From: Terriglobales bacterium
GTDB taxonomy: Bacteria; Acidobacteriota; Terriglobia; Terriglobales; Acidobacteriaceae
Direction of reading: 5' to 3'
Length of the DNA: 64,000 nt
NCBI GenBank assembly: GCA_049509755.1
Contig: JBEKZP010000001.1
Location: 208,210-272,209, forward strand
The stretch's first letter is position 1, and each line of letters begins with the position of its first letter. Under the pieces are notes generated by a model, which saw only the letters and a list, made by a program, of their open reading frames with translations, searched no databases and was not told the DNA's origin. Below, piece by piece: positions 1,195 through 57,580 of the stretch. Both the position numbers and the translations under genes were made by a program.

Positions 1195-1268
1195 TGGCTG
1201 GGCGGCCAGGATTCGAACCTGGACAAAGTGCTCCAAAGGCACTTGACCTACCATTAGTCGACCGCCCA
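1195..1268 (-). tRNA. tRNA-Gln (anticodon TTG)
   Basis: The reverse complement gives a 74-nt cloverleaf, TGGGCGGTCGACTAATGGTAGGTCAAGTGCCTTTGGAGCACTTTGTCCAGGTTCGAATCCTGGCCGCCCAGCCA, with anticodon loop CTTTGGA and a 3' CCA. Confidence 0.85.
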
Positions 1269-1276
1269 ATCCCATT

Positions 1277-1388
1277 TGGTAATTTCGTAATTGGGTAAAT
1301 TGGTAATTTTGTCGGGAACCAGGCAAACGCAAGTGTCTTCGCCGGGCCTACAAATTACCAAATTGCCAAATTACGAAATTACCAAATT
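1277..1388. repeat. AT-rich hairpin. The left arm is tandem GGTAATTT-like octamers, the spacer is GC-rich, and the right arm is tandem AAATTACC units. The right arm overlaps the ispE 3' end
   Basis: ggtaatttcgtaattgggtaaattggtaattttg is near-perfectly complementary to caaattaccaaattgccaaattacgaaattacc. The architecture matches 6738-6850, 23761-23865, 54283-54370 and 54889-54990. Confidence 0.8.
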
Positions 1389-3207: not shown

Positions 3208-3278
3208 ATGAGTTGTGAGTTCTGAGTGATCGTGGGTTCGAGTGGCCGCACTCGCAACTCAGAACTCGCAACTCGGGT
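3208..3278. repeat. Hairpin of tandem GAGTTGYGAGTTCTGAG units and their complement. It overlaps the 5' end of ORF 3242
   Basis: gagttgtgagttctgagtg pairs with cactcgcaactcagaactcgcaactc. Confidence 0.7.
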
Positions 3279-3286
3279 ACTCCCCA

Positions 3287-3493
3287 ATGTTTGAAAAACT
3301 TCTCCAGTTGCTCTCCATGACCTGCCGCCACAAGCACACTTCGCAGCCCTTTGCGGCCGCGGTTTCCGCCGCGCCGGCAGCGGCCTCTGGGGAATGGGAA
3401 TCGGTGGGCGCCGGCACCGGCCACTACATCGTTTGCCTGGATTGCGGGAAGAAGTTCCCCTATGACTGGGCGAACATGCGCCGCATCGGGTGA
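3287..3493 (+). CDS. Small Cys/His-containing zinc-ribbon-like protein (~68 aa from Met16 of ORF 3242..3493). The ORF's first 15 codons are encoded by the hairpin repeat
   Basis: MTCRHKHT...YIVCLDCGKKFPYDW, with hairpin repeats on both flanks. Confidence 0.45.
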   Translation: MFEKLLQLLSMTCRHKHTSQPFAAAVSAAPAAASGEWESVGAGTGHYIVCLDCGKKFPYDWANMRRIG

Positions 3494-3555
3494 CGAGTTG
3501 CAAGTCCCGAGTCCCGAGTTGCGAGCGGGCACTCGCGACCCACGACTCGCGACTG
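3494..3555. repeat. Hairpin of CGAGTYSCGAGT-type tandem units between the small ORF and the murJ stop
   Basis: cgagttgcaagtcccgagtcccgagttgcgagcg is complementary to cactcgcgacccacgactcgcgactg. Confidence 0.6.
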
Positions 3556-5179: not shown

Positions 5180-5266
5180 GTGCGAGTTGCGAGTTCCGAG
5201 TTGCGGCTTGTGAGTCCCGCGGACGGTTACGCGCAGGGGACTCGGGACTCGCGACTGGCGACTCCC
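5180..5266. repeat. Hairpin of tandem GCGAGTTSC units and their complement in the murJ / MBL-rhodanese intergenic region
   Basis: gtgcgagttgcgagttccgagttgcggcttgtgagtccc ... gggactcgggactcgcgactggcgactc. Confidence 0.7.
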
Positions 5267-5301: not shown

Positions 5302-6678
5302 ATGCAATTCGAGCAGTTTTACCTGAACTGCCTGGCGCATGCTTCCTACCTGATCGGCTCCGGCGGAATCGCCGCCATTGTCGATCCGCAGCGCGACATC
5401 GAAATTTACCTCAAGGCCGCCGAAGAGCACGGCCTGAAGATCGCCCACATCTTCGAAACCCATCTGCACGCTGACTTCGTCTCCGGCCACAAAGAGCTGG
5501 CACAGCGTACGGGCGCAAAAATCTACATCGGTGAACGCGCCGGCGCCAAGTTCCCGCACGTAGCTCTGCGCGACGGCTTCTCGCTGCAGTTCGGCGAGGT
5601 CGAAATCCGGGCGCTGGAAACTCCCGGTCACACGCCGGAAAGCACGTGCCTGCTGGTCTTCAACCGCGAGCAGAGTTCGGAGAAACCCTGGGCCGCACTA
5701 ACCGGCGACACGTTGTTCATCGGCGACGTGGGACGCCCCGACCTCGCCGAGGGCTACACGCCGCAGCAACTGGCCGGCGCCCTCTACGACAGCCTCCACC
5801 AGAAGCTGCTGACGCTGCCGGACGATGTGCTGGTGTATCCGGCGCACGGCGCGGGCTCGTTGTGCGGCCGCAACATGCGCGCCGACCGCTTCTCCACCAT
5901 CGGCGCCGAGCGCCTCACCAACGCGGCGCTCCAGGTGAAGACCCGCGACGACTTCATCCGCGAGCTGACCACGCACCTTCCGCCGCGCCCGCAATATTTT
6001 GCCGAAGACGCGGCCATCAACCGCGAAGGCGCAGAGGCGTTGCAGAACCTGCCACCGCTGCCCGCGCTCTCGCCCGACGAGGTGCGCGAGGCGCAGGCTC
6101 ACGGCTACGTTCTGCTGGACACGCGCGCCGGCGACGAATTCGCGCGCGGCCACGTTCCGGGTTCGGTGAACATCGGGCTGGGAGGCCAGTTCGCCTCGTG
6201 GGCGGGAACGGTGCTGGGCCTTGGCGCCAGGATGATCGTCATCGCCGAATCGGACGAGAAAGCGGCGGAGGCGCGCTTGCGGCTGGCGCGCGTCGGCATT
6301 GAGCACGTCATCGGCTACCTGAAAAACGGGGTGCGCGGCTGGGAGGAGGCAGGCAATTCTCTGGAAAAGATTCCGCAGATTACGGCCGCACAGTTGCGCG
6401 ACCGCCTGGGGGAACTCACGGTGCTCGATGTGCGCCGCGAACCCGAGTGGCAGGCGGGCCACATCGAGGGTGCGCACTGGCACGCGCTCGACGACTTTCC
6501 CCGTGCCCTGCCGGAACTCGATCGCGACGCGCCCATCGCGGTGCACTGCAAGGGCGGCTACCGCAGCGTCATCGCCGCCAGCTTGCTGCGCCGCGCCGGC
6601 TTCCGCAACGTCACCGACGTGCTCGGCGGATACGATGGGTGGGTTGCGGAGTCAAAGGTTGCTGTCACCGCGAAATGA
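5302..6678 (+). CDS. MBL-fold metallo-hydrolase fused to two rhodanese domains (persulfide dioxygenase/sulfurtransferase, CstB/ETHE1-like)
   Basis: HLHADFVSGH metallo-beta-lactamase motif. The C-terminal part has two rhodanese-like segments, including the catalytic CKGGYRS. Confidence 0.75.
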   Translation: MQFEQFYLNCLAHASYLIGSGGIAAIVDPQRDIEIYLKAAEEHGLKIAHIFETHLHADFVSGHKELAQRTGAKIYIGERAGAKFPHVALRDGFSLQFGEVEIRALETPGHTPESTCLLVFNREQSSEKPWAALTGDTLFIGDVGRPDLAEGYTPQQLAGALYDSLHQKLLTLPDDVLVYPAHGAGSLCGRNMRADRFSTIGAERLTNAALQVKTRDDFIRELTTHLPPRPQYFAEDAAINREGAEALQNLPPLPALSPDEVREAQAHGYVLLDTRAGDEFARGHVPGSVNIGLGGQFASWAGTVLGLGARMIVIAESDEKAAEARLRLARVGIEHVIGYLKNGVRGWEEAGNSLEKIPQITAAQLRDRLGELTVLDVRREPEWQAGHIEGAHWHALDDFPRALPELDRDAPIAVHCKGGYRSVIAASLLRRAGFRNVTDVLGGYDGWVAESKVAVTAK

Positions 6679-6698: not shown

Positions 6699-6730
6699 AC
6701 CCCTCGGCCGCGCTCGGGGCAGGCTCCGAC
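6699..6730 (-). repeat. Copy of the dispersed ~30-nt element (GAGCCTGCCCCGAGCGCGGCCGAGGGGTG on the minus strand)
   Basis: Matches the consensus GAGCCTGCCCTGAGCGAAGTCGAAGGG. Confidence 0.7.
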
Positions 6731-6737
6731 AAGGAGC

Positions 6738-6850
6738 ATTTCGTAATTTGGTAATTGGGTAATTTAGTAATTTGCCGGTTTTCTAATTCACATCGAACGT
6801 ACTCGGGTTCAAGAATTACCAAATTAGCAACTTACGAAATTGCTAAATCT
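6738..6850. repeat. AT-rich GTAATTT-family hairpin downstream of the MBL-rhodanese gene
   Basis: tcgtaatttggtaattgggtaatttagtaatttg ... caagaattaccaaattagcaacttacgaaattgctaaatc. Confidence 0.75.
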
Positions 6851-6893
6851 CCTTCCGTGCCTCCGTGCCTCCGTGTCTCCGTGGTGAGCTTCC

Positions 6894-9624: not shown

Positions 9625-9655
9625 CCCCGGGCTTACGCCCGGGGCTAGTTTCTGC
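9625..9655 (+). terminator. Rho-independent terminator candidate
   Basis: GC hairpin ccccgggcttacgcccgggg followed by the T-rich ctagtttctg, immediately after the stop of the upstream gene. Confidence 0.5.
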
Positions 9656-9762
9656 CGCCGCTACGCGGCTGGATTCGCGACTGGCGATCAATCCCATATC
9701 ACCAGCAATCCCCGTTGGTTTCCGCGCGCTGCTTAAGTTCAGTAGCTCGTGCGCGAGCCCCG

Positions 9763-9794
9763 CAGAGCCTGCCATGAGCGAAGTCGAAGGGTCA
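9763..9794 (+). repeat. Copy of the dispersed ~30-nt element
   Basis: cagagcctgccatgagcgaagtcgaagggtca. Confidence 0.7.
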
Positions 9795-9833
9795 GTGCCG
9801 GGAAAGCTCACACCAAATCTCTTCCCAGTCCCG

Positions 9834-9866
9834 TAGAGCCTGCCCTGAGCGCAGTCGAAGGGGACG
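9834..9866 (+). repeat. Copy of the dispersed ~30-nt element
   Basis: tagagcctgccctgagcgcagtcgaaggggacg. Confidence 0.7.
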
Positions 9867-11758: not shown

Positions 11759-13189
11759 TCAGGCTTTAGGATTGGGCAGCAACGCCGTGGCCGCCGCCTG
11801 TCCCGACGCAATGCAGTCCGGAACGCCGATGCCGCGATAGGCGTTTCCCGCCAGCTCCAGCCCCGGAATTCCGCGCCGCAATTCTTCAATCCGCCGCACG
11901 CGCGCCAGGTGCCCGCGGACGTACTGCGCCATGGCACCGCGCCAGCGGTACACGCGCGCGAAGCGGGGCGCGGCGGTGATGCCGACGATGTCACCCAGGT
12001 CCTTGGCGACGGCGGCGAACACTTCATCGTCGGGTGTATCGAGCACCGCCTCGTTTCCCCATCCGCCGATGAAGCAGCGCACCAGGCCGCGGCCGGGCGG
12101 CGCGCGGTGCGGAAACTTCACGTGCACGAAGGTGCAGGCCAGGATGCGCCGGCCCTCGCTGCGCGGAACCAGAAAACCGAATCCCGGCGGCGCGGAGGCG
12201 AGATCGCGCTGGTCGTAGCCGCAGACCACGACCATCGAGGAGCTGTAGGGAATCTGCTGCAACTCCTCCGCCAGCGGCGCGCTGATCCTTTCCAGCAGGA
12301 GTCCCGCCTGGTTCGCCGGAAGCGCCATGATGACCGCGTCGAATTCTTCCATCGAGCCCTGCTCGGGCGCGACTATCCACTTCTCGTCCTGGCGGCCGAG
12401 CGCGACCACCTTGTTCCCGGTACGCGCCGCGCCCTCGGCGAGCTGCGGCACGATGGTGTCCACCAGTTGCTGCATGCCGCCCTTCAGCGAGGTAAACAGC
12501 GGAGGCGGCGCCACACGTGCGCTGCTCGCGCCAGCGCGCACGGCTTGCTGGCGTTGCTTGCGCGCTTCGAGCATGCCGCGGCTGAGCGAGCCATAGCGCT
12601 TTTCCATTTCGACGAAGCGCGGCAACACGGCGGCGGCGCTGAGGTCGGCGGCCGCCCCACCATACACGCCGGCGAGCAGCGGGTCAGCCAGGCGCTCCAC
12701 CATCTCCGGGCCGAAATGGCGCTCTACCAACTCGGCGACGGTTTCGTCGCGCTCGCCGCCGCGCGCATTGGGTTTCTGGAAGTATTCGCGGGCGAAGCGC
12801 AGCTTGGCGCCCCACGAAAACAGCGGCGTCGAAATGATGGGCGCGATCTTGGTCGGCACCATGAACATCAGGCCATCGGGGATCGGGACCAGCCGGCCTT
12901 TGACGAGGATGTAGGTGATGCGATCGGGATCGTTGGATCCGATGAGCTGGTCGCCCAGCCCGAGCGAGCGCACGAAATCCAGGCCCCAGGATTTTTCGGT
13001 AAGGAAAGAATCAGGCCCGGCTTCGACCAGGCAATCGTCCACGCGCTCCGTGATCAGCACGCCGCCCAGCCGCGGCGCGGCCTCGAAGACAGCGTATTCA
13101 AGTTCCGCGCCCGCAGCCCGCGCGCGCTCCAGCGTAATCGCGGCGCTCAGTCCGCTGGTCCCGCCGCCGATGATGGCAATGCGCTTCAA
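11759..13189 (-). CDS. hemY: Protoporphyrinogen/coproporphyrinogen oxidase (HemY/PPOX family, FAD-dependent)
   Basis: MKRIAIIGGGTSGLSAAITL dinucleotide-binding N-terminus, a length of 476 aa, and the adjacent hemH and hemE. Confidence 0.85.
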   Translation of the reverse strand: MKRIAIIGGGTSGLSAAITLERARAAGAELEYAVFEAAPRLGGVLITERVDDCLVEAGPDSFLTEKSWGLDFVRSLGLGDQLIGSNDPDRITYILVKGRLVPIPDGLMFMVPTKIAPIISTPLFSWGAKLRFAREYFQKPNARGGERDETVAELVERHFGPEMVERLADPLLAGVYGGAAADLSAAAVLPRFVEMEKRYGSLSRGMLEARKQRQQAVRAGASSARVAPPPLFTSLKGGMQQLVDTIVPQLAEGAARTGNKVVALGRQDEKWIVAPEQGSMEEFDAVIMALPANQAGLLLERISAPLAEELQQIPYSSSMVVVCGYDQRDLASAPPGFGFLVPRSEGRRILACTFVHVKFPHRAPPGRGLVRCFIGGWGNEAVLDTPDDEVFAAVAKDLGDIVGITAAPRFARVYRWRGAMAQYVRGHLARVRRIEELRRGIPGLELAGNAYRGIGVPDCIASGQAAATALLPNPKA

Positions 13190-13202
13190 GAAAAAACCTT
13201 GG

Positions 13203-13280
13203 CCACGGATTTACACGGATACACACGGATCAACCAAAACAGATAAGAAGAAATCCGTGAGCATCCGTGAGAATCCGTGG
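13203..13280. repeat. Hairpin of tandem CACGGAT-type units and their complement between hemY and hemH
   Basis: ccacggatttacacggatacacacggat ... atccgtgagcatccgtgagaatccgtgg. Confidence 0.75.
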
Positions 13281-14297
13281 CTAGCCTTTTGATTTTATCT
13301 GCACCAGCGGTTTCGTGGGTTCCGGCTGCTCCAGGCGCGAGCGCGCAACGTCGGCAATCGCGGCCAGGAACGCAGGCGAATCGTTCAGCGACTCGGCGCG
13401 CCACAGCCGCATGCCCTGCTTCCCGGCGAACTGCCGGAAGCCGATGTCAATGTCGTACAGCACCTCGACGTGGTCGCAAACAAAACCAATCGGCTGGATG
13501 AACACGCCGCGGTGTCCTTTGGCTTGGAGCGCGAGAATCGTGTCCTCGACCGTCGGCCCGAGCCACGCGCCACCCGACATGCCCTGGCTCTGGAAGGCGA
13601 AGGTCCAGTCGTCGCCGTGGAGCGACGGGACTTCCATGGCGACCATCTCCGCGGTTTCTCTCGCCTGCTGCTCGTAAGGATCGCCGGCCTCGATGGTGCG
13701 GGTTGGAACGCTGTGCGCGGTAAAGATGATGGGCAGGCGCGCGCCCATTTCGTCACCGGCGCGTTTCCAGCCGGCTTGCAGTTTTTCGGCAAAGGCGCGG
13801 ATGAGCAGCGGGTGATCGTGCCAGTTCTCAACAAAGTCGATGGCGAAGGGCGGCTCGCCCAGCGCGCGCCGGTAAAGCCCGACGCTGGTCTGCGAGTTCT
13901 GCGGCGCCAGACAGATGACGACCGCGTTCGTGATGCCGTCTCTCGCCATTTGTTGAACCGTGTCGGCGATGAAGGGCTTCCAATTGCGCATGCCGACGTA
14001 CACCCGCGTTCGAGGGCGAACGCGCTCCAACTCGCGTTGTACGCCATTGGCCTGCTTCATGGTGATTTCCGTGAGCGGCGAGTGGCCGATGAGCCCGTAG
14101 CGATGCTTGATCTCTTCGACGACCGGCGGAGGAAGAGGGCGTCCGGCGATGTTGCGCAGGAATTCCGGGACCTCGTCAGGTGTGTCGGGATTGCCGTGGG
14201 CGAGCAGGAGGACCCCCGTCGATGGTCCCCTCGGCTTCGCTCGGGGCAGGCTCTGGTCGGCGGTCGACGGGGAATTCACTGCGCTTCGCCGAACCAT
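13281..14297 (-). CDS. hemH: Ferrochelatase. The ORF track extends to 14537, but the N-terminal 80 aa are Arg/Pro junk. The start is taken at Met81 and the true start remains uncertain (see 14226-14257)
   Basis: GVLLLAHGNPDTPDEVPEFLRNI...RYGLIGHSPL ferrochelatase N-terminus, and a characteristic length. Confidence 0.8.
   Translation of the reverse strand: MVRRSAVNSPSTADQSLPRAKPRGPSTGVLLLAHGNPDTPDEVPEFLRNIAGRPLPPPVVEEIKHRYGLIGHSPLTEITMKQANGVQRELERVRPRTRVYVGMRNWKPFIADTVQQMARDGITNAVVICLAPQNSQTSVGLYRRALGEPPFAIDFVENWHDHPLLIRAFAEKLQAGWKRAGDEMGARLPIIFTAHSVPTRTIEAGDPYEQQARETAEMVAMEVPSLHGDDWTFAFQSQGMSGGAWLGPTVEDTILALQAKGHRGVFIQPIGFVCDHVEVLYDIDIGFRQFAGKQGMRLWRAESLNDSPAFLAAIADVARSRLEQPEPTKPLVQIKSKG
14226..14257 (-). 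repeat. Copy of the dispersed ~30-nt element at the hemE/hemH junction, inside the annotated 5' end of hemH
   Basis: The minus strand reads gaccagagcctgccccgagcgaagccgaggggac (encoding DQSLPRAKPRG). Confidence 0.65.
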
Positions 14298-15373: not shown

Positions 15374-15408
15374 ACGGTTCCTTCGCTACGCTCAGGACAG
15401 GCTTTGGT
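15374..15408 (-). repeat. Diverged copy of the dispersed ~30-nt element upstream of hemE
   Basis: The minus strand reads gaccaaagcctgtcctgagcgtagcgaaggaaccg. Confidence 0.55.
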
Positions 15409-15465
15409 CGATGGTTGGCCGCAAAGGCGTTGTCGGTTTACGGTTGCTGGCGTGAACGGTCAGTC

Positions 15466-15541
15466 GGTCTGTCGGTCTCTCGGTCCATCCGTCCTGGAGT
15501 TCCCGGAGACGCATCTAGACCGATCGACCGATCGACCGAAA
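15466..15541. repeat. Hairpin of tandem CGGTC(T/A) units and their complement
   Basis: cggtcagtcggtctgtcggtctctcggtcc ... gaccgatcgaccgatcgaccgaa. Confidence 0.7.
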
Positions 15542-16357: not shown

Positions 16358-16740
16358 CCGACGTAGGCGTCGGCTTCGATTTCCACCAGCATCTCCGGAG
16401 AAATCAGGCGCGCGACCGCGATCATGCTGGTGGCGGGGCGGATCGCGGCGAAGAATTCACCGTGCGCTCGCCCGACCTTCTCCCAATCTTCCATGTGGAT
16501 CAGGTAAATGCGCGTGCGCACCACGTTTTCCAGGCGCGCGCCGGCCTGCCCCAGCGCCCATTCGATATTGCGCAGCGTCTGCACCGCTTGCGCGTAGGCG
16601 TCGCCTGCGCCGACGATGCCGCCGCCCGGCGTGGTGGCGGTGGTTCCCGAGACATGCACGTACGGTCCGATACGCACCGCGCGCGAATAACCGACAAGGG
16701 GTTCCCACGGCGTGCCGCTGGCAATGTTGAGCCGAGTCAT
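16354..16740 (-). CDS. ridA: RidA/YjgF family reactive-intermediate deaminase
   Basis: 128 aa with conserved RidA-family residues (PYVHVSGT...RTRIYL...AVARL...EIEADA). Confidence 0.85.
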
Positions 16741-16779: not shown

Positions 16780-16811
16780 TGGAGCCTGCCCTGAGCGAAG
16801 TCGAAGGGGAC
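16780..16811 (+). repeat. Copy of the dispersed ~30-nt element
   Basis: tggagcctgccctgagcgaagtcgaaggggac. Confidence 0.7.
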
Positions 16812-16820
16812 GGGTGAAAC

Positions 16821-18200
16821 TCAGCTTCTCCGCACTTGCAGCAGCGCCGCATCGAACTCCGGGACCCTGGCTGCTTCTTCCTCCCAGAACGCTTGCGACT
16901 TCATGCCTTCCAGGTACGAATCGGAATAGCCGAACCTGCTCCAGGTCTCCTGCTTGTAGCGGAAGAGCCGCTCCTTCTCCCGGCGAGGCCGGACATCGAG
17001 AATATCGGCGGAAGAGCCGCCGCGGAAGATGGCCTCGAACGATTCATGGAGCGCCGTTTCGGCCGTCATCGGCTTGCGCTTCGCCAACTCCGAGAGCACC
17101 GATGGGTAGCGATCGAAGCCATCGGTCGCGATGGTCACCACATTGTCCCTGGGCCCGAGATTGAGATGTCGCGCCAGCCGGATTGAGCCCAGGATGTTGC
17201 ACAAGCCGGAAATGCCGAAGAGGCCGTCGAACTCGCGCAGCAATCCCGCGCGCACCTGCAGCCGCTTCTCGAGGAACGCCTGCCGCTGCTGCAACAACTC
17301 GAGCCCGACGACGCAATCGTCATCATGGATCAGCATCACGTAGTCGGTGGTCAGCACGTTGTGAATGAGGGTGACCATTTTGTCGCCGATGCCCTCGATG
17401 CGATGCGTTCCGCGGCCGTTGTTGAACAGCGTGGAGCACTGGCGCGGCTCCGGCGCGCAGATGAGCGCGTCGGGAAATTGCGCCTTGATCTCGTCGCCCG
17501 CGGCCAGCGTTCCCGCCGAGCCCGGAGCTGCGACGAACGCCGCCACCTGTCCGTTCCCGTGCGCACGCGCCGCTTCCAGCGCGCTGCCGCCGGTAACGTG
17601 GCGGTGGAATCGGTAATTCGGCAACAGTTCGAACTGCGCCAGCACCTTGTTGCGCGCGTCCTTCTTGTATTCCTCGGTGCGCTCCAGCACCAGGATGACA
17701 TCGCTCTCCGACCCGGGCGTGAGGTCGAGCTTGCCGCCGTATTGCCGGATTCGCTGGTAGCGCTCGGCGCTCATCTGCTCCGGCATGATGACGATGGCGG
17801 GATAACCCTTGAGCTTGGAGATGTAGGCCACGCCGATACCGAAGTTGCCGGTCGAGGGGCCGATGATGGTGTTCTCTCCCTGATGGATCTCGCCCGCCAG
17901 TTCACCTTCCATCAGGGTCGCGTAGGCCGGGCCGACCTTGTGGCTGCCCGAGGGAAACTCGCGTCCCACGAGCACGACGATGTTGGCCTCCACGCCCGTC
18001 AGTTCCTTCGGAAGCACGACGTGGCGGATGGAATTGTCCGGCGCGCGCCAGGTGATGTTGTACAGGTTGATCGGGTCCAGCTCGTTGGCGCGCGCGGCCA
18101 ATGCCTTCTGGCGAATCGCGGGAGGCAGCGTCTCGGGATGAAGCATTTCAGAGTAGGTGGGGCCGAAGCCGGTTGCGGATTCCAGGCGGGGTGCTGGCAT
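16821..18200 (-). CDS. Fold-type II PLP-dependent enzyme (cysteine synthase/CBS-like, tryptophan synthase beta superfamily). It is the first gene of the purine-catabolism operon and occupies the slot where a YgeX-like PLP enzyme would sit
   Basis: SGSHKVGPAY (PLP-lysine) and PSTGNFGIGVAY glycine-rich loop. The exact subfamily was not resolved. Confidence 0.6.
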   Translation of the reverse strand: MPAPRLESATGFGPTYSEMLHPETLPPAIRQKALAARANELDPINLYNITWRAPDNSIRHVVLPKELTGVEANIVVLVGREFPSGSHKVGPAYATLMEGELAGEIHQGENTIIGPSTGNFGIGVAYISKLKGYPAIVIMPEQMSAERYQRIRQYGGKLDLTPGSESDVILVLERTEEYKKDARNKVLAQFELLPNYRFHRHVTGGSALEAARAHGNGQVAAFVAAPGSAGTLAAGDEIKAQFPDALICAPEPRQCSTLFNNGRGTHRIEGIGDKMVTLIHNVLTTDYVMLIHDDDCVVGLELLQQRQAFLEKRLQVRAGLLREFDGLFGISGLCNILGSIRLARHLNLGPRDNVVTIATDGFDRYPSVLSELAKRKPMTAETALHESFEAIFRGGSSADILDVRPRREKERLFRYKQETWSRFGYSDSYLEGMKSQAFWEEEAARVPEFDAALLQVRRS

Positions 18201-19546
18201 CAGAATCTTCTCCAGAGTTGGCGTGCGCAGGCGGTGGCTTTTTCGGCGACGGCGCGCTCGTCCACGTTGACGAACTGCCGGTCGCGAATGACGAAGCGGC
18301 CGTTCACCACCAGCGAATCCACCGGCGCGTGCGCAATGCCGAACAGCGCGTGGCCGAAGATGTTGTCGCTGGTGAGCGGCGTGGGCGGAAAGTAGTCATA
18401 GAGCACCAGGTCGGCGCGCGCCCCTGCTTCGATGCGTCCGATGTCCAGGTTCCAGACCTTCCGGGCGATGGTGCGATTGTTGAGCAGCGCCAGCGCGTAA
18501 GCTTCCGCGTAGGCAACGCGCGGATCGCCGGCGCGCATTTTCTGGACGTGGAAGGCGGTCTTGAACTCGTCCCACATGCGCGGGCTGTAACCGTCGGAGC
18601 CGAGGCCGACCAGCACGCCGGCTTTCACCATCTCCAGCACGCGTGCCGCTCCCACCGCGTTGTTGCAATTCGATTGCGGGTTGTGAACCACGTTGATCTG
18701 GTGGCGCGCCAGCGCCGCGATGTCGGCGCCGCTTACGTGAATGCAGTGCGCGGCCAGCGCGCGATCGTCGAGTACGCCCAGTTCATGCAGCCGGCGCACC
18801 GGAGATTTCCCGTGCTTCCTGCGGGCATCGTCGTTGTCGCTGCGGTCTTCGGAAACGTGCACGTGGAATCCGGCTTGCAGCGATTCGTTCGCTTCCACCG
18901 AGCGGCGCAGCGTGCGATCGCTCAGGGTGAAAGAAGCGTGCAGGCCGAAGCTGGCGTTCACCAGCCCGTTTGACTTGCGCGCGCGCTCGATGAAGCGGAC
19001 GTTTTCGTCGATTCCTTCCTGCGCGTTCCTCGGGCCGTTGCGGTCGGTGGTTTCGTAGCAGAGCACCCCGCGCAATCCGACCTCGCGAAAGGCACGCTCA
19101 ATCACGTCGAGGCTGCCGCTGACCGCCGATGGACTGGAATGGTGGTCCACCAGCGTGCCCACGCCGCAGCGCGCCGAATCCATCACGCCGACCAGCGCGC
19201 TGTAGTAGATGTCCTGCTGGTTGAGCGCGCGGTCGAGCCGCCACCACAGCTTTTTCAGAATTTCGGGAAAATTCTTCGGCGGCGTGCCCGGCAGCGAGAT
19301 GCCCCGCGCCAGCGTGCTGTAGAGATGGGTGTGGCAGTTGATGAGCGCGGGCATGAGCAGGCGGCCGCGCGCGTCGATCCTTTCCACGGAATCTGCACAC
19401 GCGAGGGCGCCCTTCGACAAGCTCAGGGCAGGCTGTGTGCCACACACTTCGCCAATGCTGCCGTCATCGCGCACCTCGACCGTGCCGCAATCCAGCACGC
19501 GGTTGCGCGAGTCGAGGGTCAGGATGCGGGCGTTTTCGATGATCAT
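18200..19546 (-). CDS. ssnA: SsnA-type amidohydrolase (chlorohydrolase/aminohydrolase family). The start is at MIIENARIL, with an ATGA overlap onto the carbamate kinase stop
   Basis: LINCHTHLYSTLARG...NLWWRLDRAL pattern as in E. coli SsnA. Contains an in-frame copy of the 30-nt element (TQPALSLSKGA). Confidence 0.75.
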   Translation of the reverse strand: MIIENARILTLDSRNRVLDCGTVEVRDDGSIGEVCGTQPALSLSKGALACADSVERIDARGRLLMPALINCHTHLYSTLARGISLPGTPPKNFPEILKKLWWRLDRALNQQDIYYSALVGVMDSARCGVGTLVDHHSSPSAVSGSLDVIERAFREVGLRGVLCYETTDRNGPRNAQEGIDENVRFIERARKSNGLVNASFGLHASFTLSDRTLRRSVEANESLQAGFHVHVSEDRSDNDDARRKHGKSPVRRLHELGVLDDRALAAHCIHVSGADIAALARHQINVVHNPQSNCNNAVGAARVLEMVKAGVLVGLGSDGYSPRMWDEFKTAFHVQKMRAGDPRVAYAEAYALALLNNRTIARKVWNLDIGRIEAGARADLVLYDYFPPTPLTSDNIFGHALFGIAHAPVDSLVVNGRFVIRDRQFVNVDERAVAEKATACARQLWRRF

Positions 19547-21590: not shown

Positions 21591-23760
21591 AGTGCGCGCG
21601 CCGCGGATTGGAAACTGCGTCCATCAGGAACTTGAGCTGCAAGTAAGGCAGCATGTCCACAGTATGCGGCGCGGCGCAGCCCGGTTTCAGTGACCAGGCT
21701 AGGACCGCGTGATCGGTAGTCCTGATTTGGATTTCCACGCTGCCGTCGTCGAAGACGGCGCGCTGCTGCTGCGCGTCCGACGTGAGCCGGTACGGCTTGC
21801 CGGCGATGGTGCCGTGAATGGTGTTGCCGCCGCTGGAAAAAGCCAGGAAGAAGCCATTGCGGCCGGCAAACTTCTGGTACGACTCCAGGCTGCCGAAGAA
21901 GCGCGGCTTCTCGATTTGCGGGCCGCCGTCCTCGGGGCAGAAGACATCGCAATTACCGCAGTCGTTGCAGGCGTCGGCGTAGTTGGCGAACTGATGCGCG
22001 CGCGCCACCTTGAATGTGCCGCCGGGCACGGGGCGCGCTTCGCCGCCCGCAAGCAACTCGTAATTGCTGTAGGCGAAGTCGGCGGCGCCGGACTCGTAGA
22101 CGAAATTGGCGTCGTTGGGGCAGACCGGAACGCACTTGTCGCAACTGATGCAGTCGTAGAGCCACAGCTTGGAGCCGATCTTGCGCGGCGCCGCCTTGTT
22201 CTTTTTCCACCGATAGCGCGGGTCGGCGGTGGTGCGCTCCACGATCGAAGGCGTGTTGAGCACGCCCGCGGCTTCCACCAGCGTGCGCTCCAGCCCGACA
22301 AGTTCGTCCTGGAGGGCGTCGGCGAGCGAATGTGGAAGCTGCGGGATACGGCCGGGAGTGAATTCGCGCTGGATATCGGCGCAGACCTCATTCAGCGCCG
22401 CGCCCGGAGTCGCGAGCCAGGCTTTCAGCCGCGCGGCGACAACGGCTTCGATGGCGGAGGCGGCGCCGGGAAAACGCTTTCCGAGCGCCGTTACCACGGA
22501 GTTGATGGCCACCTCGCCCTGGCCGGCGTAGCGGACGACAAAGTCATGAATCCGAGGCGCGCCAAGCTCGCGCATTTTCGCGCCCAGGTTTTCCAGGTAC
22601 CTGGGAAGCCGCGCGTAGCCGCCGGGGCGCAGCAGGTCGGTGCAGGTGGTGACGGGCACGAAATTCATGGCAACGGCGTTGCACACGTTGTGCTGGTCGA
22701 GGCCGGCGGAGAACGAAATGGGATACGCGGCGCCCATGTGCTCACGGAATTTCTTCACCAGGTTGAGCGTGACCACGTGCAGCGGCGGGCCGGACATGTA
22801 CATGACTTCGTCGGTGAACATCCGGCGGTGGTTCTTCACCACCAGCGTGTTGCTGAACTTGACGGCCAGGCGCTTGCCGCGGAAGCGCGCGACCCCGGCC
22901 AGGCGCGGCAGCATGGTGAGCGCGTCGGAAAACTGAAGGTCGTGCTCGAAGGCGTCGGCGGCGACCTGGATATCGCGATAGCCGAGCACGTCGTGCAGCA
23001 CATGTTTCACCTGCTCGAAGCCGAGCAGCGTGGGGTTGAGCTTGATGCAGACGTGCACATCCATCTCGGCGAGCAGAAAGGCGACGATGCCCTCGATCTC
23101 GTGCGCCGGGCAACCGTGGAAGGTGGAGAGCGTGATGGTGTCGCTGAGGCGCGTGGGGAAGGGCAGGTCGCGATAACGCGCCCACGGGCCGGTGAGGGTG
23201 GCGCGCAGTTCGTCAACGATGGCGCGCGCGTCCTTCATGCTCTCGATCCACTGGCGCACGCGCGGCGAGCGGATGCCCTCCAGGCTGTAGCCCACGCTCA
23301 TGTCGTAAATCGTGTCGGTGAAGGGGCCGGTGAATTCCTCGCCCAGCAGGCGCGAGGCTTTCAGGATCTCGATGAACATCATCGCGCCAACGTACTCGCG
23401 CAACGATTGTTCCAGCTTCAGCTCCTGCGACCACTCGACGTTGTACCCGACGTTGGTGGCGTCAATGCAGGGGCGCGGGATTTTGAGCTCGTCCATGATC
23501 TGCACCGTCTTGAGCTCGATGATGCGCGAGCCGGCGAGCCAGGAGAGAACGATGTTCTGCAACAGTTGATCGTGCGGGCCGGCGGCGGGCCCCACGGGAT
23601 TGGCGGCGCGCCGGCCATGAAACGTAACGGAAGTATCCAGGCCGCTCAGGCCGCGAAAGACCTTCGCCTTCGGCAGGTCGAAGATTTTTCCCTCGCGCTC
23701 ATATTCGAGAAATGCGCGCGTGAGCTGCAGCGGGAGCGGGATGGGGATGAGCTCGGACAT
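21547..23760 (-). CDS. ygfK: YgfK-family Fe-S oxidoreductase: an N-terminal YgfK/DHOD-like TIM-barrel region plus a C-terminal 2x[4Fe-4S] ferredoxin domain. The central FAD/NAD(P)-binding domain present in E. coli YgfK appears to be absent. Start at MSELIP; the upstream 23 codons are encoded by the hairpin repeat
   Basis: PVGPAAGPHDQLLQNIVLSWLAGSRIIELKTVQ, TLSTFHGCPAHEIE, IKLNPTLLGF, MYMSGPPLH and TDLLRPGGYARL match the E. coli YgfK N-terminal region. The ferredoxin cysteines are CISCDKCVPVCPNDAN and CNDCGNCDVFCPEDGG. It is 738 aa versus ~1030 aa in E. coli. Confidence 0.7.
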   Translation of the reverse strand: MSELIPIPLPLQLTRAFLEYEREGKIFDLPKAKVFRGLSGLDTSVTFHGRRAANPVGPAAGPHDQLLQNIVLSWLAGSRIIELKTVQIMDELKIPRPCIDATNVGYNVEWSQELKLEQSLREYVGAMMFIEILKASRLLGEEFTGPFTDTIYDMSVGYSLEGIRSPRVRQWIESMKDARAIVDELRATLTGPWARYRDLPFPTRLSDTITLSTFHGCPAHEIEGIVAFLLAEMDVHVCIKLNPTLLGFEQVKHVLHDVLGYRDIQVAADAFEHDLQFSDALTMLPRLAGVARFRGKRLAVKFSNTLVVKNHRRMFTDEVMYMSGPPLHVVTLNLVKKFREHMGAAYPISFSAGLDQHNVCNAVAMNFVPVTTCTDLLRPGGYARLPRYLENLGAKMRELGAPRIHDFVVRYAGQGEVAINSVVTALGKRFPGAASAIEAVVAARLKAWLATPGAALNEVCADIQREFTPGRIPQLPHSLADALQDELVGLERTLVEAAGVLNTPSIVERTTADPRYRWKKNKAAPRKIGSKLWLYDCISCDKCVPVCPNDANFVYESGAADFAYSNYELLAGGEARPVPGGTFKVARAHQFANYADACNDCGNCDVFCPEDGGPQIEKPRFFGSLESYQKFAGRNGFFLAFSSGGNTIHGTIAGKPYRLTSDAQQQRAVFDDGSVEIQIRTTDHAVLAWSLKPGCAAPHTVDMLPYLQLKFLMDAVSNPRRAHYANAAALTGANLAQ

Positions 23761-23865
23761 TGGGTAACTTGGTAATTGGGTAATTTCGTAATTTTGTAAT
23801 TTTCGAAACGCGCGCACGCAGCGCAACAAATTACCAAATTACCAATTTACGAAATTACAAAATTC
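23761..23865. repeat. AT-rich GTAATTT-family hairpin between ygfK-like and ygeY
   Basis: tgggtaacttggtaattgggtaatttcgtaattttgtaattttc ... caaattaccaaattaccaatttacgaaattacaaaattc. Confidence 0.8.
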
Positions 23866-50077: not shown

Positions 50078-50084
50078 AAAGGCA

Positions 50085-50135
50085 GCTCTTAGCTTTTAGC
50101 TTTTAGCTATTAGCAATTAGCGACTTCGTCCAGCA
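50085..50135. repeat. Tandem TAGCTTT-type heptamer repeat forming a partial hairpin
   Basis: agctcttagcttttagcttttagctattagcaattagc. Confidence 0.55.
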
Positions 50136-52908: not shown

Positions 52909-52938
52909 GCCGTTCCCTTCGACTTCGCTCAGGGTCAC
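52909..52938 (-). repeat. Copy of the dispersed ~30-nt element. The minus strand contains the exact core CCCTGAGCGAAGTCGAAGGG
   Basis: The plus strand reads gccgttcccttcgacttcgctcagggtcac. Confidence 0.7.
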
Positions 52939-53105
52939 GCTGACGCAAGCAACTGCCGGCTAACGGCAGCGCTTAAGAACGCGATGGGAAAGACCCACAT
53001 CTGCCAAAACCGGGCAGATGTGGGGCACCCGGCCACTCGGGACTCGGGTCTGGCGACTCACTTGTGGTTTAATCCTTATCTCTAATCTGAAATCCGAATC
53101 TATTC

Positions 53106-54282: not shown

Positions 54283-54370
54283 ATTTGTAATTGGTAATTT
54301 GTAATTTGTAATTTCCGGCGCTGCCGCAGATGGTTTTCAAATTACAAATTACAAATTGCAAATTACAAAT
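54283..54370. repeat. AT-rich TTGTAAT/ATTACAA-family hairpin between aroC and def
   Basis: atttgtaattggtaatttgtaatttgtaatttcc ... caaattacaaattacaaattgcaaattacaaatc. Confidence 0.8.
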
Positions 54371-54378
54371 CAGCACGC

Positions 54379-54891
54379 ATGATCTATCCCATCGTTAAGC
54401 TCGGCGACCCGGTGCTGGACAAGCCAGCGGAGAAGGTGACGAAGTTCGACGACGAGCTGCGCAAGCTGCTCGACGACATGTTCGAGTCCATGTACGCGGC
54501 GCACGGCGTGGGCCTGGCGGCGCCACAGATCGGCATTTCCAGGCGCATCGCGGTGATCGATATCACGTTCAAGGAAGACCCGGACGCCAAGCTGGTGCTG
54601 ATCAATCCGGAGATCATCCACAAGGAAGGCCGGCACACGCAGCAGGAAGGCTGCCTCAGCCTGCCGGAGTTCCGCGAGAACGTGACGCGGCCGCGCGTGG
54701 TGACCGTGCGCGCGCAGGATGCGAAGGGAAACTGGTTCGAGAAAACCGGCGACGACCTGCTGGCGCGCGCGCTGATGCACGAGACCGATCACCTTAACGG
54801 CAAGCTGTACATCACGCACATTTCGGCGCTGAAGCGCGACCTGATCAAGCGCAAGGTGAAGAAACTCATAAAGCAGGGGGAGTGGAAGTAA
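54379..54891 (+). CDS. def: Peptide deformylase
   Basis: GVGLAAPQIG, EGCLSLP and HETDHLNG motifs. Confidence 0.9.
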   Translation: MIYPIVKLGDPVLDKPAEKVTKFDDELRKLLDDMFESMYAAHGVGLAAPQIGISRRIAVIDITFKEDPDAKLVLINPEIIHKEGRHTQQEGCLSLPEFRENVTRPRVVTVRAQDAKGNWFEKTGDDLLARALMHETDHLNGKLYITHISALKRDLIKRKVKKLIKQGEWK

Positions 54892-54990
54892 TTGGTAATT
54901 TCGTAATTTGGTAATTTTGTAATTTAACAAGTTGCAGCGCCGGTCGAGCCTCTCCAAATTACCCAATTACCAAATTACCCAATTACCAAA
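54889..54990. repeat. AT-rich GTAATTT-family hairpin between def and fmt. The right arm runs into the fmt start
   Basis: taattggtaatttcgtaatttggtaattttgtaattt ... caaattacccaattaccaaattacccaattaccaaatgg. Confidence 0.8.
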
Positions 54991-55979
54991 TGGACGTAAT
55001 CTTCTGTGGCACCCCGCAATTCGCCGTGCCCACGCTGCAGGCGCTGATGAACGCCGACGCCGGGCATCGCGTGCGCCTGGTCGTGACCCAGCCGGACCGC
55101 CCCAGCGGACGCGGCATGGAACTCAGCGCGCCACCGGTGAAGCAACTGGCGCAAAGGCTCGGCCTGGAGGTGACGCAGCCGGAAAAAATCAAAAACAATT
55201 TGGAATTTCGCGCGCGGCTGGAGGAGATCCGGCCGGAGGCGATCGTGGTGGTCGGCTACGGGCGCATCATTCCGCAATGGATGATTGACCTGCCGCCGCT
55301 GGGAAACATTAACCTGCACGGCTCGCTGCTGCCGAAATATCGCGGCGCGGCGCCGGTGCAGTGGGCGATCGCGTCGGGCGAGACCGTCACCGGCGTGACC
55401 ACCATGCGGATTGACGCCGGGCTGGACACGGGCGACATCCTGCTGCAGCGCGAGACGCCAATCGCGGCGGAGGACACGGCGGTCACGCTGGCGCCTCGGC
55501 TGGCGGAGATGGGCGCGCCGCTGATGGTGGAAACACTCGCGGGATTGAAGGCGGGTACAATCACGCCGCGCCAGCAGGACGATGCGCAAGCGACGCTGGC
55601 GCCCATTCTGAAGAAAGAAGACGGGCTGATTGATTTTCGCCGCCGCGCGCGCGAGATCTGCAACCGCCTGCGCGGGTTTCAGCCCTGGCCGGGGGCATAC
55701 ACCACGTTCCGCGACAAGAGCCTGAATGTGTGGGCGGCGATACCGGCGGAGGAGTCAGGAATCGGGAGTCAGGAGTCAGCGGTCGCGCCCGGCGAGCTGA
55801 GCGTGGACAAGGACCGGTTATTCGTCTTGTGCGGCGAGCGGACTGTGTTGGAATTGTTGACCGTGCAGCCGGAAGGGAAGAAGAGGATAGCGGCGCGGGA
55901 TTTTATTCACGGGTATCATCCGAAAACGGGGGAGCAGTTGGGAACTGAAAAACACAGAGACACAGAGGCACAGAGATAA
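54990..55979 (+). CDS. fmt: Methionyl-tRNA formyltransferase
   Basis: VIFCGTPQFAVPTLQAL...HGSLLPKYRGAAPVQWAI. The last ~10 codons are encoded by the ACAGAG repeat. Confidence 0.9.
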   Translation: MDVIFCGTPQFAVPTLQALMNADAGHRVRLVVTQPDRPSGRGMELSAPPVKQLAQRLGLEVTQPEKIKNNLEFRARLEEIRPEAIVVVGYGRIIPQWMIDLPPLGNINLHGSLLPKYRGAAPVQWAIASGETVTGVTTMRIDAGLDTGDILLQRETPIAAEDTAVTLAPRLAEMGAPLMVETLAGLKAGTITPRQQDDAQATLAPILKKEDGLIDFRRRAREICNRLRGFQPWPGAYTTFRDKSLNVWAAIPAEESGIGSQESAVAPGELSVDKDRLFVLCGERTVLELLTVQPEGKKRIAARDFIHGYHPKTGEQLGTEKHRDTEAQR

Positions 55980-57364: not shown

Positions 57365-57403
57365 CCACGGATCGCCACGGATGAACACGGATCGGATTCG
57401 TGG
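57365..57403. repeat. Tandem CACGGAT-type repeat with a partial palindrome after rsmB
   Basis: ccacggatcgccacggatgaacacggatcggattcgtgg. Confidence 0.6.
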
Positions 57404-57580
57404 AGCGCAGACGCGAGGACGTGTGTGGCACAAATGAGCTGCCGCGGGCGAGGGCGCCTGCGGCAGTCGTATTTTGGGGCACGTACACGGCAGCCCCGGC
57501 GAGGGCGCCGGGGCCTACAGGTCATTCTGAAAAATTGCCTTCCTGCGATCCGGGGTCATCTGTGGAAATCTCGTGGTTGA

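What the first reader, a model, noticed from the sequence alone, without database searches (positions are those of the whole stretch)
19406..19437. Copy of the 30-nt element inserted in-frame inside the ssnA coding sequence
Within SsnA the element is translated as ...GTQPALSLSKGA... between the conserved N-terminal beta-strand region and the HxH metal-binding motif (LINCHTH). The reading frame is preserved. A second copy lies in the annotated 5' end of hemH (14226-14257, translated DQSLPRAKPRG). Tolerated in-frame insertion of an intergenic repeat into an enzyme core is unusual and implies either a surface-loop location or a recent insertion. It also shows the element can land in coding DNA.
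Basis: partly seen in the sequence, partly recalled or inferred. Interest (0 to 1): 0.55.

Follow-up and report, generated by a model that had tools for sequence, protein, structure and literature searches.

The report
Tiny repeat inserted in-frame in ssnA
A 24-base copy of a very small, widely dispersed DNA repeat sits in-frame in the one length-variable loop of the SsnA enzyme (a second copy is in the tail of ferrochelatase), and the same unit turns up inside genes of unrelated bacteria.

Summary
ssnA (18200-19546, minus strand, 448 aa) carries a 24-nt block (19411-19434). Relatives with 95% and 82% identical proteins lack exactly this block and have intact flanks. hemH carries a second 24-nt block (14230-14253) in its translated N-terminal tail. 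There is no target duplication.

The ssnA copy is nested in a 23-nt perfect palindrome that is itself a dispersed repeat. This composite lies in the only length-variable segment of SsnA (residues 31-50). AlphaFold gives pLDDT below 50 there, upstream of the HxH motif. In other Acidobacteriota and Gemmatimonadales the same loop holds in-frame palindromes that add up to about 60 residues.

The core, GCCTGCCCTGAGC-N3-4-TCGAAGGG, occurs exactly in at least 120 metagenome contigs (36-71% GC), 45 viral contigs and a Trichlorobacter plasmid. It lies in-frame inside Pfam domains of RecJ (Patescibacteria), PriA, a protein kinase, peptidase S58 and an AMP-binding enzyme.

The best reading is a very small non-autonomous mobile repeat that survives only as multiples of three in permissive loops. 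The mobilising mechanism is unknown. In-frame repeat insertion is a known kind of event (RPE, intragenic REPs). I found no description of this 24-nt cross-phylum unit.

The parts
19411..19434 (-). 24-nt core copy (AGCCTGCCCTGAGCTTGTCGAAGG) inserted in-frame in ssnA. It turns R into QPALSLSKG (residues 38-46).
   Evidence: Exact 24-nt gap against L081, L082 and L005. The protein alignment agrees. The junction is ambiguous by 1-3 nt.
19395..19441 (-). Composite of 'hairpin A' arms (GGCACAC... / ...CCCTCGCGTGTGC) enclosing the core. It encodes C35-A51.
   Evidence: The empty form GGCACACGCGCCCTCGCGTGTGC occurs in ssnA of L081, L082 and L005. Copies also lie outside ssnA, empty at L002 12738-12761 and filled at L005 12713-12760. 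Empty form as DNA: -12.8 kcal/mol, z = -4.3.
18200..19546 (-). ssnA coding sequence (448 aa), intact.
   Evidence: NCBIfam NF005540 515 bits and TIGR03314 506 bits. Pfam Amidohydro_1. All columns invariant among the aligned homologs are present.
14230..14253 (-). 24-nt core copy (GAGCCTGCCCCGAGCGAAGCCGAG) in the translated N-terminal tail of hemH. It is the C:G stem variant, which removes the TGA that the T variant would give in this frame.
   Evidence: 24-nt gap against L081; present in L002 and L003.
13281..14279 (-). hemH coding sequence. The GTG start at 14279 overlaps the TGA of hemE (14276-14278).
   Evidence: Ferrochelatase hits. The overlapping start and stop are conserved in L002, L003, L081 and L025. 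The L081 gene call starts at the same codon.
14004..14023 (-). A separate small palindrome (CGCGTTCG-CCCT-CGAACGCG) inside hemH. It coincides with a 15-nt in-frame indel (14013-14027).
   Evidence: Present in the window and L002, absent in L081 and L003.
16782..16808 (+). Intergenic family copy flanked by CCCGT/ACGGG, just 3' of the PALP gene next to ssnA.
   Evidence: At this site L081, L002 and L005 each carry a different hairpin element.
9765..9862 (+). Two intergenic family copies (9765-9791 and 9836-9862), spaced 71 nt start to start.
6700..6726 (-). Intergenic family copy (C:G variant) just 3' of ORF 5302-6678.
15380..15403 (-). Diverged family copy upstream of hemE, also present in L081.
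52915..52942 (-). Intergenic family copy with a diverged 5' part.

Best explanation
The 24 nt at 19411-19434 are a copy of a very small (24-25 nt), non-autonomous, dispersed DNA unit with core GCCTGCCCYGAGC-N3-4-YCGARGGG. The unit was added at DNA level, without target-site duplication, into a pre-existing 23-nt palindromic repeat ('hairpin A'). That palindrome already occupied the single hypervariable loop of SsnA's N-terminal beta-sandwich.

Five of the unit's six reading frames are open, and here the net length is 24 nt. The gene therefore stays in frame and gains 8 residues (R becomes QPALSLSKG) in a disordered loop. The catalytic barrel is untouched, and the change is probably near-neutral. 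The hemH copy is a second event of the same kind, in the N-terminal tail.

Shown: the presence/absence polymorphism, the nesting, the loop location, and recurrence of the same unit in unrelated flanks and genes.

Inferred: the unit moves by an enzyme acting in trans, most plausibly on single-stranded DNA or hairpin substrates. Selection then filters copies inside genes down to multiples of three, in open frames, at permissive sites.
For: 1. Clean 24-nt indels in ssnA and hemH against L081. The two genomes are 93.5% identical over 13.9 kb, and these are the only indels of 16 nt or more inside genes.
2. The empty hairpin A is present in the most divergent member of the clade (L005, 82%), while filled alleles occur only among relatives of 89% identity or more.
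3. The same core lies in many different flanks within the window.
4. The core occurs exactly in at least 120 metagenome contigs of 36-71% GC, in 45 viral contigs and in a Trichlorobacter plasmid.
5. Some of its sites have no pre-existing repeat. In Patescibacteria RecJ most homologs read DHHLP|GEKLP, while P0121 and P0122 read DHHLPALSGVEGPGEKLP.
6. Pfam domains span the insert in RecJ, Peptidase_S58, Pkinase, AMP-binding and PriA.
7. Perfect flanking inverted repeats of 7 nt or more occur in 19% of copies against 4% of controls. For 8 nt or more the figures are 11% against 1%.
8. Stem position 4:17 covaries: T:A 42, C:G 13, T:G 2, against C:A 1 and T:C 2.
9. The insert falls in the AF2 segment with pLDDT below 50 (residues 39-51), between strands 30-36 and 56-58.
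10. All SsnA length variation lies in residues 31-50.
Against: - No mobilising gene was found. No protein family is shared by the core-bearing loci, and none was looked for genome-wide.
- The core alone is a weak hairpin (-1.6 kcal/mol, z = +0.5). It has no terminal inverted repeats and no conserved target duplication.
- Its junctions are ambiguous by 1-3 nt of G/C microhomology. That fits templated repair as well as transposition.
- Loop alleles are incongruent with the SsnA tree. Insertion and precise loss therefore cannot be polarised rigorously.
- At hemH the flanks next to the insert also differ from L081, which suggests a longer replaced patch.
Confidence: 0.6

Rival explanations
1. The block arrived by templated patch repair or gene conversion, not transposition. 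Both forms of hairpin A, with and without the core, exist as dispersed copies. The ssnA copy switched from the short to the long form by template switching or short-homology recombination with another filled copy, using the 9-10-nt arms.
For: The whole 47-52-nt composite, arms included, matches a filled copy outside ssnA at 92% (L005 12709-12760). The core sits at the same place in hairpin A at both loci. Junctions show only microhomology. At hemH the flanks differ from the empty allele as if a longer patch had been replaced. Loop alleles move between lineages by recombination.
Against: The filled copy outside ssnA carries 25 extra nt, not 24, so a 1-nt adjustment is needed. The core also occurs where no homologous arms exist, for example RecJ DHHLP|GEKLP, a kinase and PriA. 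Those sites need a true insertion route.
Confidence: 0.22
2. The filled state is ancestral for this clade, and the 'empty' alleles (L081, L082, L005, P0004, P0006) arose by precise deletion of the 24 nt.
For: Filled alleles are scattered over the SsnA tree. Mobile elements that work on single-stranded DNA can excise precisely (general knowledge of IS200/IS605).
Against: No direct repeats flank the block to mediate deletion. The empty form is a perfect, stable palindrome that also exists elsewhere as a unit. The most divergent clade member is empty. Several other loop alleles lack both the hairpin and the core.
Confidence: 0.08
3. The insert is functional. Either the 8 residues are an adaptive surface feature, or the nucleic-acid structure regulates expression of ssnA and the downstream genes.
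For: The same SsnA loop carries strong in-frame hairpins in many lineages. Stem pairing in the core is maintained.
Against: The loop is hypervariable in length and sequence, and closely related genomes do without the insert. AF2 sees no structure there. Insertion weakens rather than strengthens the local hairpin. The same unit lies in unrelated proteins in both orientations.
Confidence: 0.05
4. The match is a chance resemblance or an assembly artefact.
For: The element is short, and the ssnA copy differs from the intergenic copies by a 1-nt shorter spacer.
Against: Zero matches in shuffles and profile E = 5e-4. The identical filled allele occurs in independent assemblies from JGI, ENA and NCBI (P0001 with 29 members, P0003, P0008, L001, L083, L084).
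Confidence: 0.01

Closest known systems
Rickettsia palindromic elements (RPE), as summarised in PMC3733652
   Same: A non-coding repeat family whose copies sit in-frame inside functional protein genes, adding short peptide segments at tolerated positions.
   Different: From my own knowledge, RPEs are about 100-150 bp, clearly palindromic and confined to Rickettsia. Here the unit is 24-25 nt, a weak hairpin on its own, and is found in at least three phyla.
REP / REPIN elements and intragenic REPs (Di Nocera et al. 2013, PMC3733652; Bertels & Rainey 2011, PMC3116915)
   Same: Short and mostly extragenic, lying just 3' of genes. Sometimes nested in small palindromes (T. roseum GTAG-23 in CCGSSCC..GGSSCGG). 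Sometimes inside genes, often replication or repair genes.
   Different: No GTAG or CGTC tag and no strong palindrome. The sequence is not species-specific. No RAYT was identified.
Cyanobacterial small dispersed repeats, SDR4-6 (Elhai et al. 2008, Genome Res 18:1484; cited in PMC3116915, paper not held, so details are from memory)
   Same: Units of 21-27 nt that look mobile from presence/absence comparisons. They are found nested in other repeats, including tandem heptamer arrays.
   Different: Different sequences, described only in Nostocales. Here the host range is cross-phylum and there are documented in-frame copies inside conserved domains.
Geobacter 'multicopy nucleotide sequences' found within genes (Aklujkar et al. 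2009, PMC2700814)
   Same: Short repeat families between and within genes. They include tandem hepta- and octanucleotide arrays in inverted pairs, like those in this window.
   Different: The core sequence is not in that paper's text or held supplements. Those authors interpreted the families as regulatory sites or RNAs.
MITEs and IS200/IS605-derived palindrome-associated elements
   Same: Non-autonomous. The IS200/IS605 type also makes no target duplication and uses hairpins in single-stranded DNA.
   Different: Those elements are 70 bp or longer, with terminal inverted repeats or subterminal hairpins. This unit is 24-25 nt and has neither.

Membership tests
SsnA (NCBIfam NF005540 / TIGR03314), host gene | Whole-protein score above the curated cut-off | tested here: met
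   515.3 bits against a cut-off of 444, and 506.1 against 455.5.
SsnA (NCBIfam NF005540 / TIGR03314), host gene | Amidohydrolase HxH metal motif and an intact barrel | tested here: met
   H72 and H74, together with the other columns invariant among the aligned homologs, are present. Amidohydro_1 covers residues 64-419.
SsnA (NCBIfam NF005540 / TIGR03314), host gene | Typical neighbourhood: OTCase-like gene, carbamate kinase, PALP enzyme, M20 peptidase, Fe-S protein | tested here: met
   Gene calls of the syntenic loci L081 and L083.
REP / REPIN (RAYT-mobilised) | 20-40-nt imperfect palindrome that forms a stable hairpin | tested here: not met
   Core alone: -1.6 to -1.7 kcal/mol, z = +0.2 to +0.5. 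Only a 4-bp stem is supported, by covariation.
REP / REPIN (RAYT-mobilised) | Conserved GTAG or CGTC tetranucleotide at one end | tested here: not met
   The core starts (A/G)GA-GCCTG and ends AGGG.
REP / REPIN (RAYT-mobilised) | Mostly extragenic, close to the 3' ends of genes | tested here: met
   Five of the six window copies outside genes lie just 3' of genes or between them; the sixth (15380-15403) is upstream of hemE.
REP / REPIN (RAYT-mobilised) | A cognate RAYT (Y1 transposase) gene in the genome | not testable with these tools
   Only a 64-kb window is available. No shared protein family was found near the core-bearing loci.
RPE (Rickettsia palindromic elements) | In-frame insertion into functional ORFs | tested here: met
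   ssnA and hemH. Also RecJ, S58 peptidase, kinase, AMP-binding enzyme and PriA.
RPE (Rickettsia palindromic elements) | Palindromic unit of about 100-150 bp, restricted to Rickettsia | tested here: not met
   The unit is 24-25 nt. Hosts are Terriglobia, Trichlorobacter and Patescibacteria.
MITE | Terminal inverted repeats and a target-site duplication | tested here: not met
   No duplication at the ssnA or hemH junctions, and no terminal inverted repeats within the 24 nt.
Cyanobacterial SDR-type very small mobile repeats | Size 21-27 nt, presence/absence between close relatives, nesting in other repeats | tested here: met
   24-25 nt. Polymorphic at three loci. Nested in hairpin A and next to heptamer arrays. 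The comparison rests on my memory of the paper.
Cyanobacterial SDR-type very small mobile repeats | Sequence identity to SDR4, SDR5 or SDR6 | not testable with these tools
   The paper is not held.

The most novel reading that the evidence does not exclude
The 24-25-nt core may be an undescribed, horizontally spread, ultra-small mobile DNA unit. It is shared by Acidobacteriota, Thermodesulfobacteriota, Patescibacteria and phage contigs. It inserts without target duplication, favours hairpin loops, and returns to the same few protein loops (the SsnA loop, the RecJ DHH-LP site), repeatedly adding 8-residue segments to conserved enzymes. Its mobilising machinery is unknown.
Probability: 0.35. Interest if true: 0.8.

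Novelty: new variant of a known kind. Interest (0 to 1): 0.6.

Why it matters
In-frame repeat insertions generate protein length variation and confuse gene calling, start-codon choice and homology-based annotation. This case supplies a clean polymorphic example with empty and filled alleles.

It also defines a protein loop that has accepted in-frame palindromic DNA adding up to about 60 residues across two phyla. Such a loop is a natural permissive site.

Finally, it points to a 24-nt unit that keeps at least 21 identical bases across very different bacteria. If that unit is truly mobile, it would be among the smallest mobile DNAs known, and its mechanism is open. The peptides it encodes (PALSLSKG, PALSEVEG, PFDKLRAG, PSTSSGQA, LRQAQGR) would then explain many spurious 'hypothetical proteins' and odd inserts in metagenomic proteins.

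Tried and rejected
- Rfam, whole window at gathering thresholds and two element regions at E up to 10: no family matches the element.
- Full-text searches for the core DNA, for a related family sequence (CCTGAGCGAAGCGAAGG) and for six encoded peptides: nothing relevant. The supplements of two Geobacter genome papers also gave nothing.
- Elhai 2008 could not be read.
- Polarising insertion against deletion with an NJ tree failed. Loop alleles are scattered, which implies recombination.
- I looked for a partner gene in two ways. The inverted pair of copies in L108 flanks ordinary metabolic and regulatory genes, not a transposase. All-against-all clustering of ORFs from 165 core-bearing loci found no enriched family.
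- The idea that the core is a REP-like stable palindrome was rejected on folding energies.
- Resemblance to the hammerhead ribozyme core and to tmRNA, RNase P RNA or SRP RNA fragments was considered by eye and dropped. This was not computed.
- Fold-back copying of the adjacent local sequence was considered for the hemH 15-nt hairpin and rejected, because both arms differ from the empty allele.

Full report
**The observation.** On the minus strand, 19406-19437 reads CACAGCCTGCCCTGAGCTTGTCGAAGGGCGCC. It lies inside an ORF (18200-19546, ATG at 19546, 448 aa) that translates as ...GSIGEVCGTQPALSLSKGALACADSVERIDARGRLLMPALINCHTH.... The ORF is SsnA: NCBIfam NF005540 gives 515 bits against a cut-off of 444, TIGR03314 gives 506 bits, and Pfam Amidohydro_1 covers residues 64-419.

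**The repeat family in the window.** The core is GAGCCTGCCCYGAGC-N3-4-YCGARGGG. Further copies lie at 6700-6726(-), 9765-9791(+), 9836-9862(+), 14227-14253(-), 15380-15403(-), 16782-16808(+) and 52915-52942(-). Shuffled sequence gave no matches. The ssnA copy has a 3-nt spacer (TTG) where most window copies have 4 nt (GAAG), so fixed-length patterns miss it. A profile finds it at E = 5e-4 in 1.45 Mb.

**Is it an insertion?** The window comes from a Terriglobia (Acidobacteriota) genome or a close relative of one.
- Among the closest SsnA proteins, P0002, P0004 and P0006 (93-95% identity, 440 aa) read GT(R/P)AL where the window reads GTQPALSLSKGAL. P0001, P0003 and P0008 carry the longer form.
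- At DNA level the window reads GGCACAC[AGCCTGCCCTGAGCTTGTCGAAGG]GCGCCCTCGCGTGTGC. L081, L082 (which encode P0002) and L005 (82% identity) read GGCACACGCGCCCTCGCGTGTGC (L081 has a G in place of the C before GCGTGTGC). This is a 24-nt gap with intact flanks and no target duplication.
- Across 13.9 kb of alignable DNA, the window and L081 are 93.5% identical. The only indels of 16 nt or more inside genes are this block and a second 24-nt block in hemH.

**hemH.**
- The window reads ...CCGACCA[GAGCCTGCCCCGAGCGAAGCCGAG]GGGACC..., and L081 lacks the bracketed 24 nt. L002 and L003 carry it.
- The hemH start overlaps the hemE stop (caGTGAatt in the window, L002 and L081; ATGA in L003 and L025). No in-frame ATG, GTG or TTG lies between the element and the conserved GVLLLAHG. 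The copy is therefore translated, in the N-terminal tail, and the start should not be moved.
- In this frame the usual T variant (CCC TGA) would create a stop codon. The hemH copy is the C:G stem variant (CCC CGA ... GAG GGG), which also occurs intergenically at 6700 and in metagenomes.

**Nesting.**
- The empty ssnA site is itself a perfect 9-bp palindrome, GCACACGCG-CCCT-CGCGTGTGC, which I call hairpin A. As DNA it folds at -12.8 kcal/mol, z = -4.3.
- Hairpin A is a dispersed element. Just after the stop of the PALP gene next to ssnA, L002 has an empty copy (12738-12761, opposite orientation). L005 has a filled copy (12713-12760) with the core at the same place, adding 25 nt there.
- At that intergenic site the window has a different family copy (16782-16808), and L081 has yet another hairpin.
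- Other core copies are also embraced by locus-specific inverted repeats: CCCGT/ACGGG at 16782, CCCCGTCGA/TCGACGGGG at hemH, and 17 nt in L002 at 17966.
- The ssnA loop therefore looks like two stacked in-frame additions, hairpin A (about 27 nt, CGTRALACA) and then the core (24 nt). The first step is inferred only from the shorter loops of other lineages.

**Where in the protein?** An AlphaFold2 model built from 38 homologs (mean pLDDT 78) places residues 39-51 in the lowest-confidence segment (below 50). That segment lies between strands 30-36 and 56-58 of the N-terminal beta-sandwich and precedes strand 70-74, which carries HxH.
- In 118 full-length homologs of 67% identity or more, nearly all length variation falls in query residues 31-50. 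The block 41-50 ranges from 1 to 55 residues, while the rest is almost free of indels.
- Across 69 genomic loci, the segment from the start codon to MPALINCH ranges from 48 to 110 aa.
- The long versions are near-perfect nucleic-acid hairpins. In L034, L035, L043 and L056 (Gemmatimonadales) and in L040 (unclassified bacterium), loops built from tandem repeats fold at -44 to -69 kcal/mol. L009 reaches -75 and L063 -103.
- One such loop palindrome (GTAGGGGCACGCCATGGCGTGCCCCTAC in L011) recurs outside ssnA in L011, L006 and L014.
- This loop is thus a recurrent landing place for palindromic repeats, not only in this genome.
- Loop alleles do not follow the tree of the rest of the protein, which indicates recombination. 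The tree therefore cannot polarise gain against loss.

**The core outside this clade.**
It also occurs in 45 IMG/VR contigs.
- The spacer is GAAG in 32 copies, TTG in 26 and CTG in 24.
- Some contigs carry tandem arrays of the 24-nt unit (L093, L165).
- Perfect flanking inverted repeats of 7 nt or more occur in 19% of copies against 4% of two kinds of control. For 8 nt or more the figures are 11% against 1%.
- In looser matches, stem position 4:17 covaries: T:A 42, C:G 13, T:G 2, against C:A 1 and T:C 2. This supports a small CCCT...AGGG stem. By nearest-neighbour energies, however, the core alone is not a strong hairpin.
- Five of the six reading frames are open (read directly from the sequence).

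**The core inside other real genes.** Pfam domains span the insert in several proteins:
- RecJ DHH domain (L091)
- Peptidase_S58 (L094)
- Pkinase (L183, opposite orientation, PSTSSGQA)
- AMP-binding enzyme (L168)
- PriA 3'BD domain (L192, PFDKLRAG)

The core also lies in the MacB/FtsX linker (L186). Three tandem copies of a related variant, of which only the last is an exact core, lie in an FG-GAP protein (L122).

In the Trichlorobacter lovleyi plasmid pIAE1 the core sits in the C-terminus of an annotated transposase as EPALSVVEG.

The RecJ case is an independent replicate. The host is a Patescibacterium. Most homologs read DHHLPGEKLP, while P0121 and P0122 read DHHLPALSGVEGPGEKLP. Related inserts occur at the same site in P0130, P0143, P0186, P0207 and P0232.

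**Mechanism.**
- Shown: presence/absence at three loci, no target duplication, nesting in palindromes, recurrence in unrelated flanks and genes, and a net length of 24 nt in both genes where an empty allele is available (the RecJ insert is 8 residues, which corresponds to 24 nt).
- Inferred: a non-autonomous unit is copied in by a factor acting in trans, perhaps on hairpin or single-stranded DNA. Selection then keeps only in-frame, stop-free copies at permissive sites.
- Main rival: templated patch repair or gene conversion between dispersed filled and empty hairpins. This fits the ssnA and hemH junctions but not the naive RecJ-type sites.
- No mobilising gene was found.

**Comparison with known elements.** In-frame repeat insertion is known from Rickettsia RPEs and from intragenic REPs. 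REPs nested in small palindromes are also described (PMC3733652). Geobacter genomes have multicopy sequences inside genes (PMC2700814). Very small mobile repeats of 21-27 nt were reported in cyanobacteria (Elhai 2008; cited in PMC3116915; details from memory).

This unit fails the tests for REP (no GTAG or CGTC tag, weak palindrome, not species-specific), for MITE (no terminal inverted repeats, no target duplication) and for RPE (size, host). No Rfam family and no paper in the held library matches its sequence or its peptides.

**Verdict.** The event is an ordinary kind of event, a tolerated in-frame repeat insertion in a permissive loop. The unit involved is unusual: a 24-nt repeat found in at least three phyla that appears to be undescribed.

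Noticed in passing
window 1274-1388, 6738-6883, 23759-23864, 54283-54370, 54888-54991: AT-rich tandem arrays of 7-8-nt units (ATTTGGTA / CAAATTAC, ATTTGTA / CAAATTA), 4-5 copies each. They come in inverted pairs about 25-45 nt apart in intergenic regions of a GC-rich genome. They resemble the paired 'four tandem octanucleotide repeat' sites described in Geobacter (PMC2700814).
   Followed up: partly
window 13193-13290, 57355-57394; 3235-3541, 5181-5264, 53035-53059; 1162-1190, 50084-50126; 15457-15539: Further families of short tandem repeats forming inverted pairs (CACGGAT / ATCCGTG; ACTCGSGAC; AGCTNTTAGC; CGGTCTGT / GACCGATC). Their function is unknown.
   Followed up: no
window 9625-9670 (+): Acido-Lenti-1 RNA (Rfam RF01687, 54 bits against a gathering score of 37), about 100 nt upstream of the two adjacent repeat copies at 9765 and 9836.
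   Followed up: no
window 14004-14027 (-), inside hemH: A third in-frame indel: 15 nt (14013-14027) that complete a palindrome CGCGTTCG-CCCT-CGAACGCG. Present in the window and L002, absent in L081 and L003. Both arms differ from the empty allele.
   Followed up: partly
window + L001-L084: CCCT/AGGG is the commonest 4-nt loop among perfect hairpins of 7 bp or more (19 of 269). Examples are hairpin A, the L004 SsnA loop (CCGGCCG-CCCT-CGGCCGG), window 57493-57512, and a repeated GCGGACC-CCCT-GGTCCGC in L045.
   Followed up: partly
L034, L035, L040, L043, L056 (SsnA loop); L009, L011, L012, L014, L015, L018, L022, L030, L063: In other Acidobacteriota and Gemmatimonadales the same SsnA loop contains long in-frame palindromes, some built from tandem heptamers, adding up to about 60 residues.
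   Followed up: partly
L081 11485-11520, L003 about 16370-16400 (hemH 5' end): The HemH N-terminal tail is built from tandem heptamers (CCATCGR, 3-4 copies). The core copy in L003 sits next to this array, and its site in L081 lies within it.
   Followed up: no
L121 10877 and 3337; L101 3502; L203 1508; L184, L192, L193, L200 flanks: A related family, GTCATCC(T/C)GAGCGAAG(C)GA(A/G)GGATC, shares the CC-GAGC-GAAG-CGA-GG design with the core. This suggests a wider superfamily.
   Followed up: no
L205 1744-3111 (Trichlorobacter lovleyi pIAE1, NZ_CP058410.1): An annotated transposase next to qacEdelta1-sul1 carries the core in-frame near its C-terminus (EPALSVVEG). The plasmid has six matching places.
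   Followed up: partly
P0126, P0127, P0132, P0134, P0135, P0147, P0157 (Patescibacteria RecJ): The RecJ site right after DHHLP carries several other insert types (for example RLAEAESGGGP, LLRQGYEGQAG). It is an insertion hot spot like the SsnA loop.
   Followed up: no
window 1198-1268 (-): A tRNA gene (Rfam, 61.5 bits) lies beside one of the AT-rich inverted tandem-repeat pairs.
   Followed up: no
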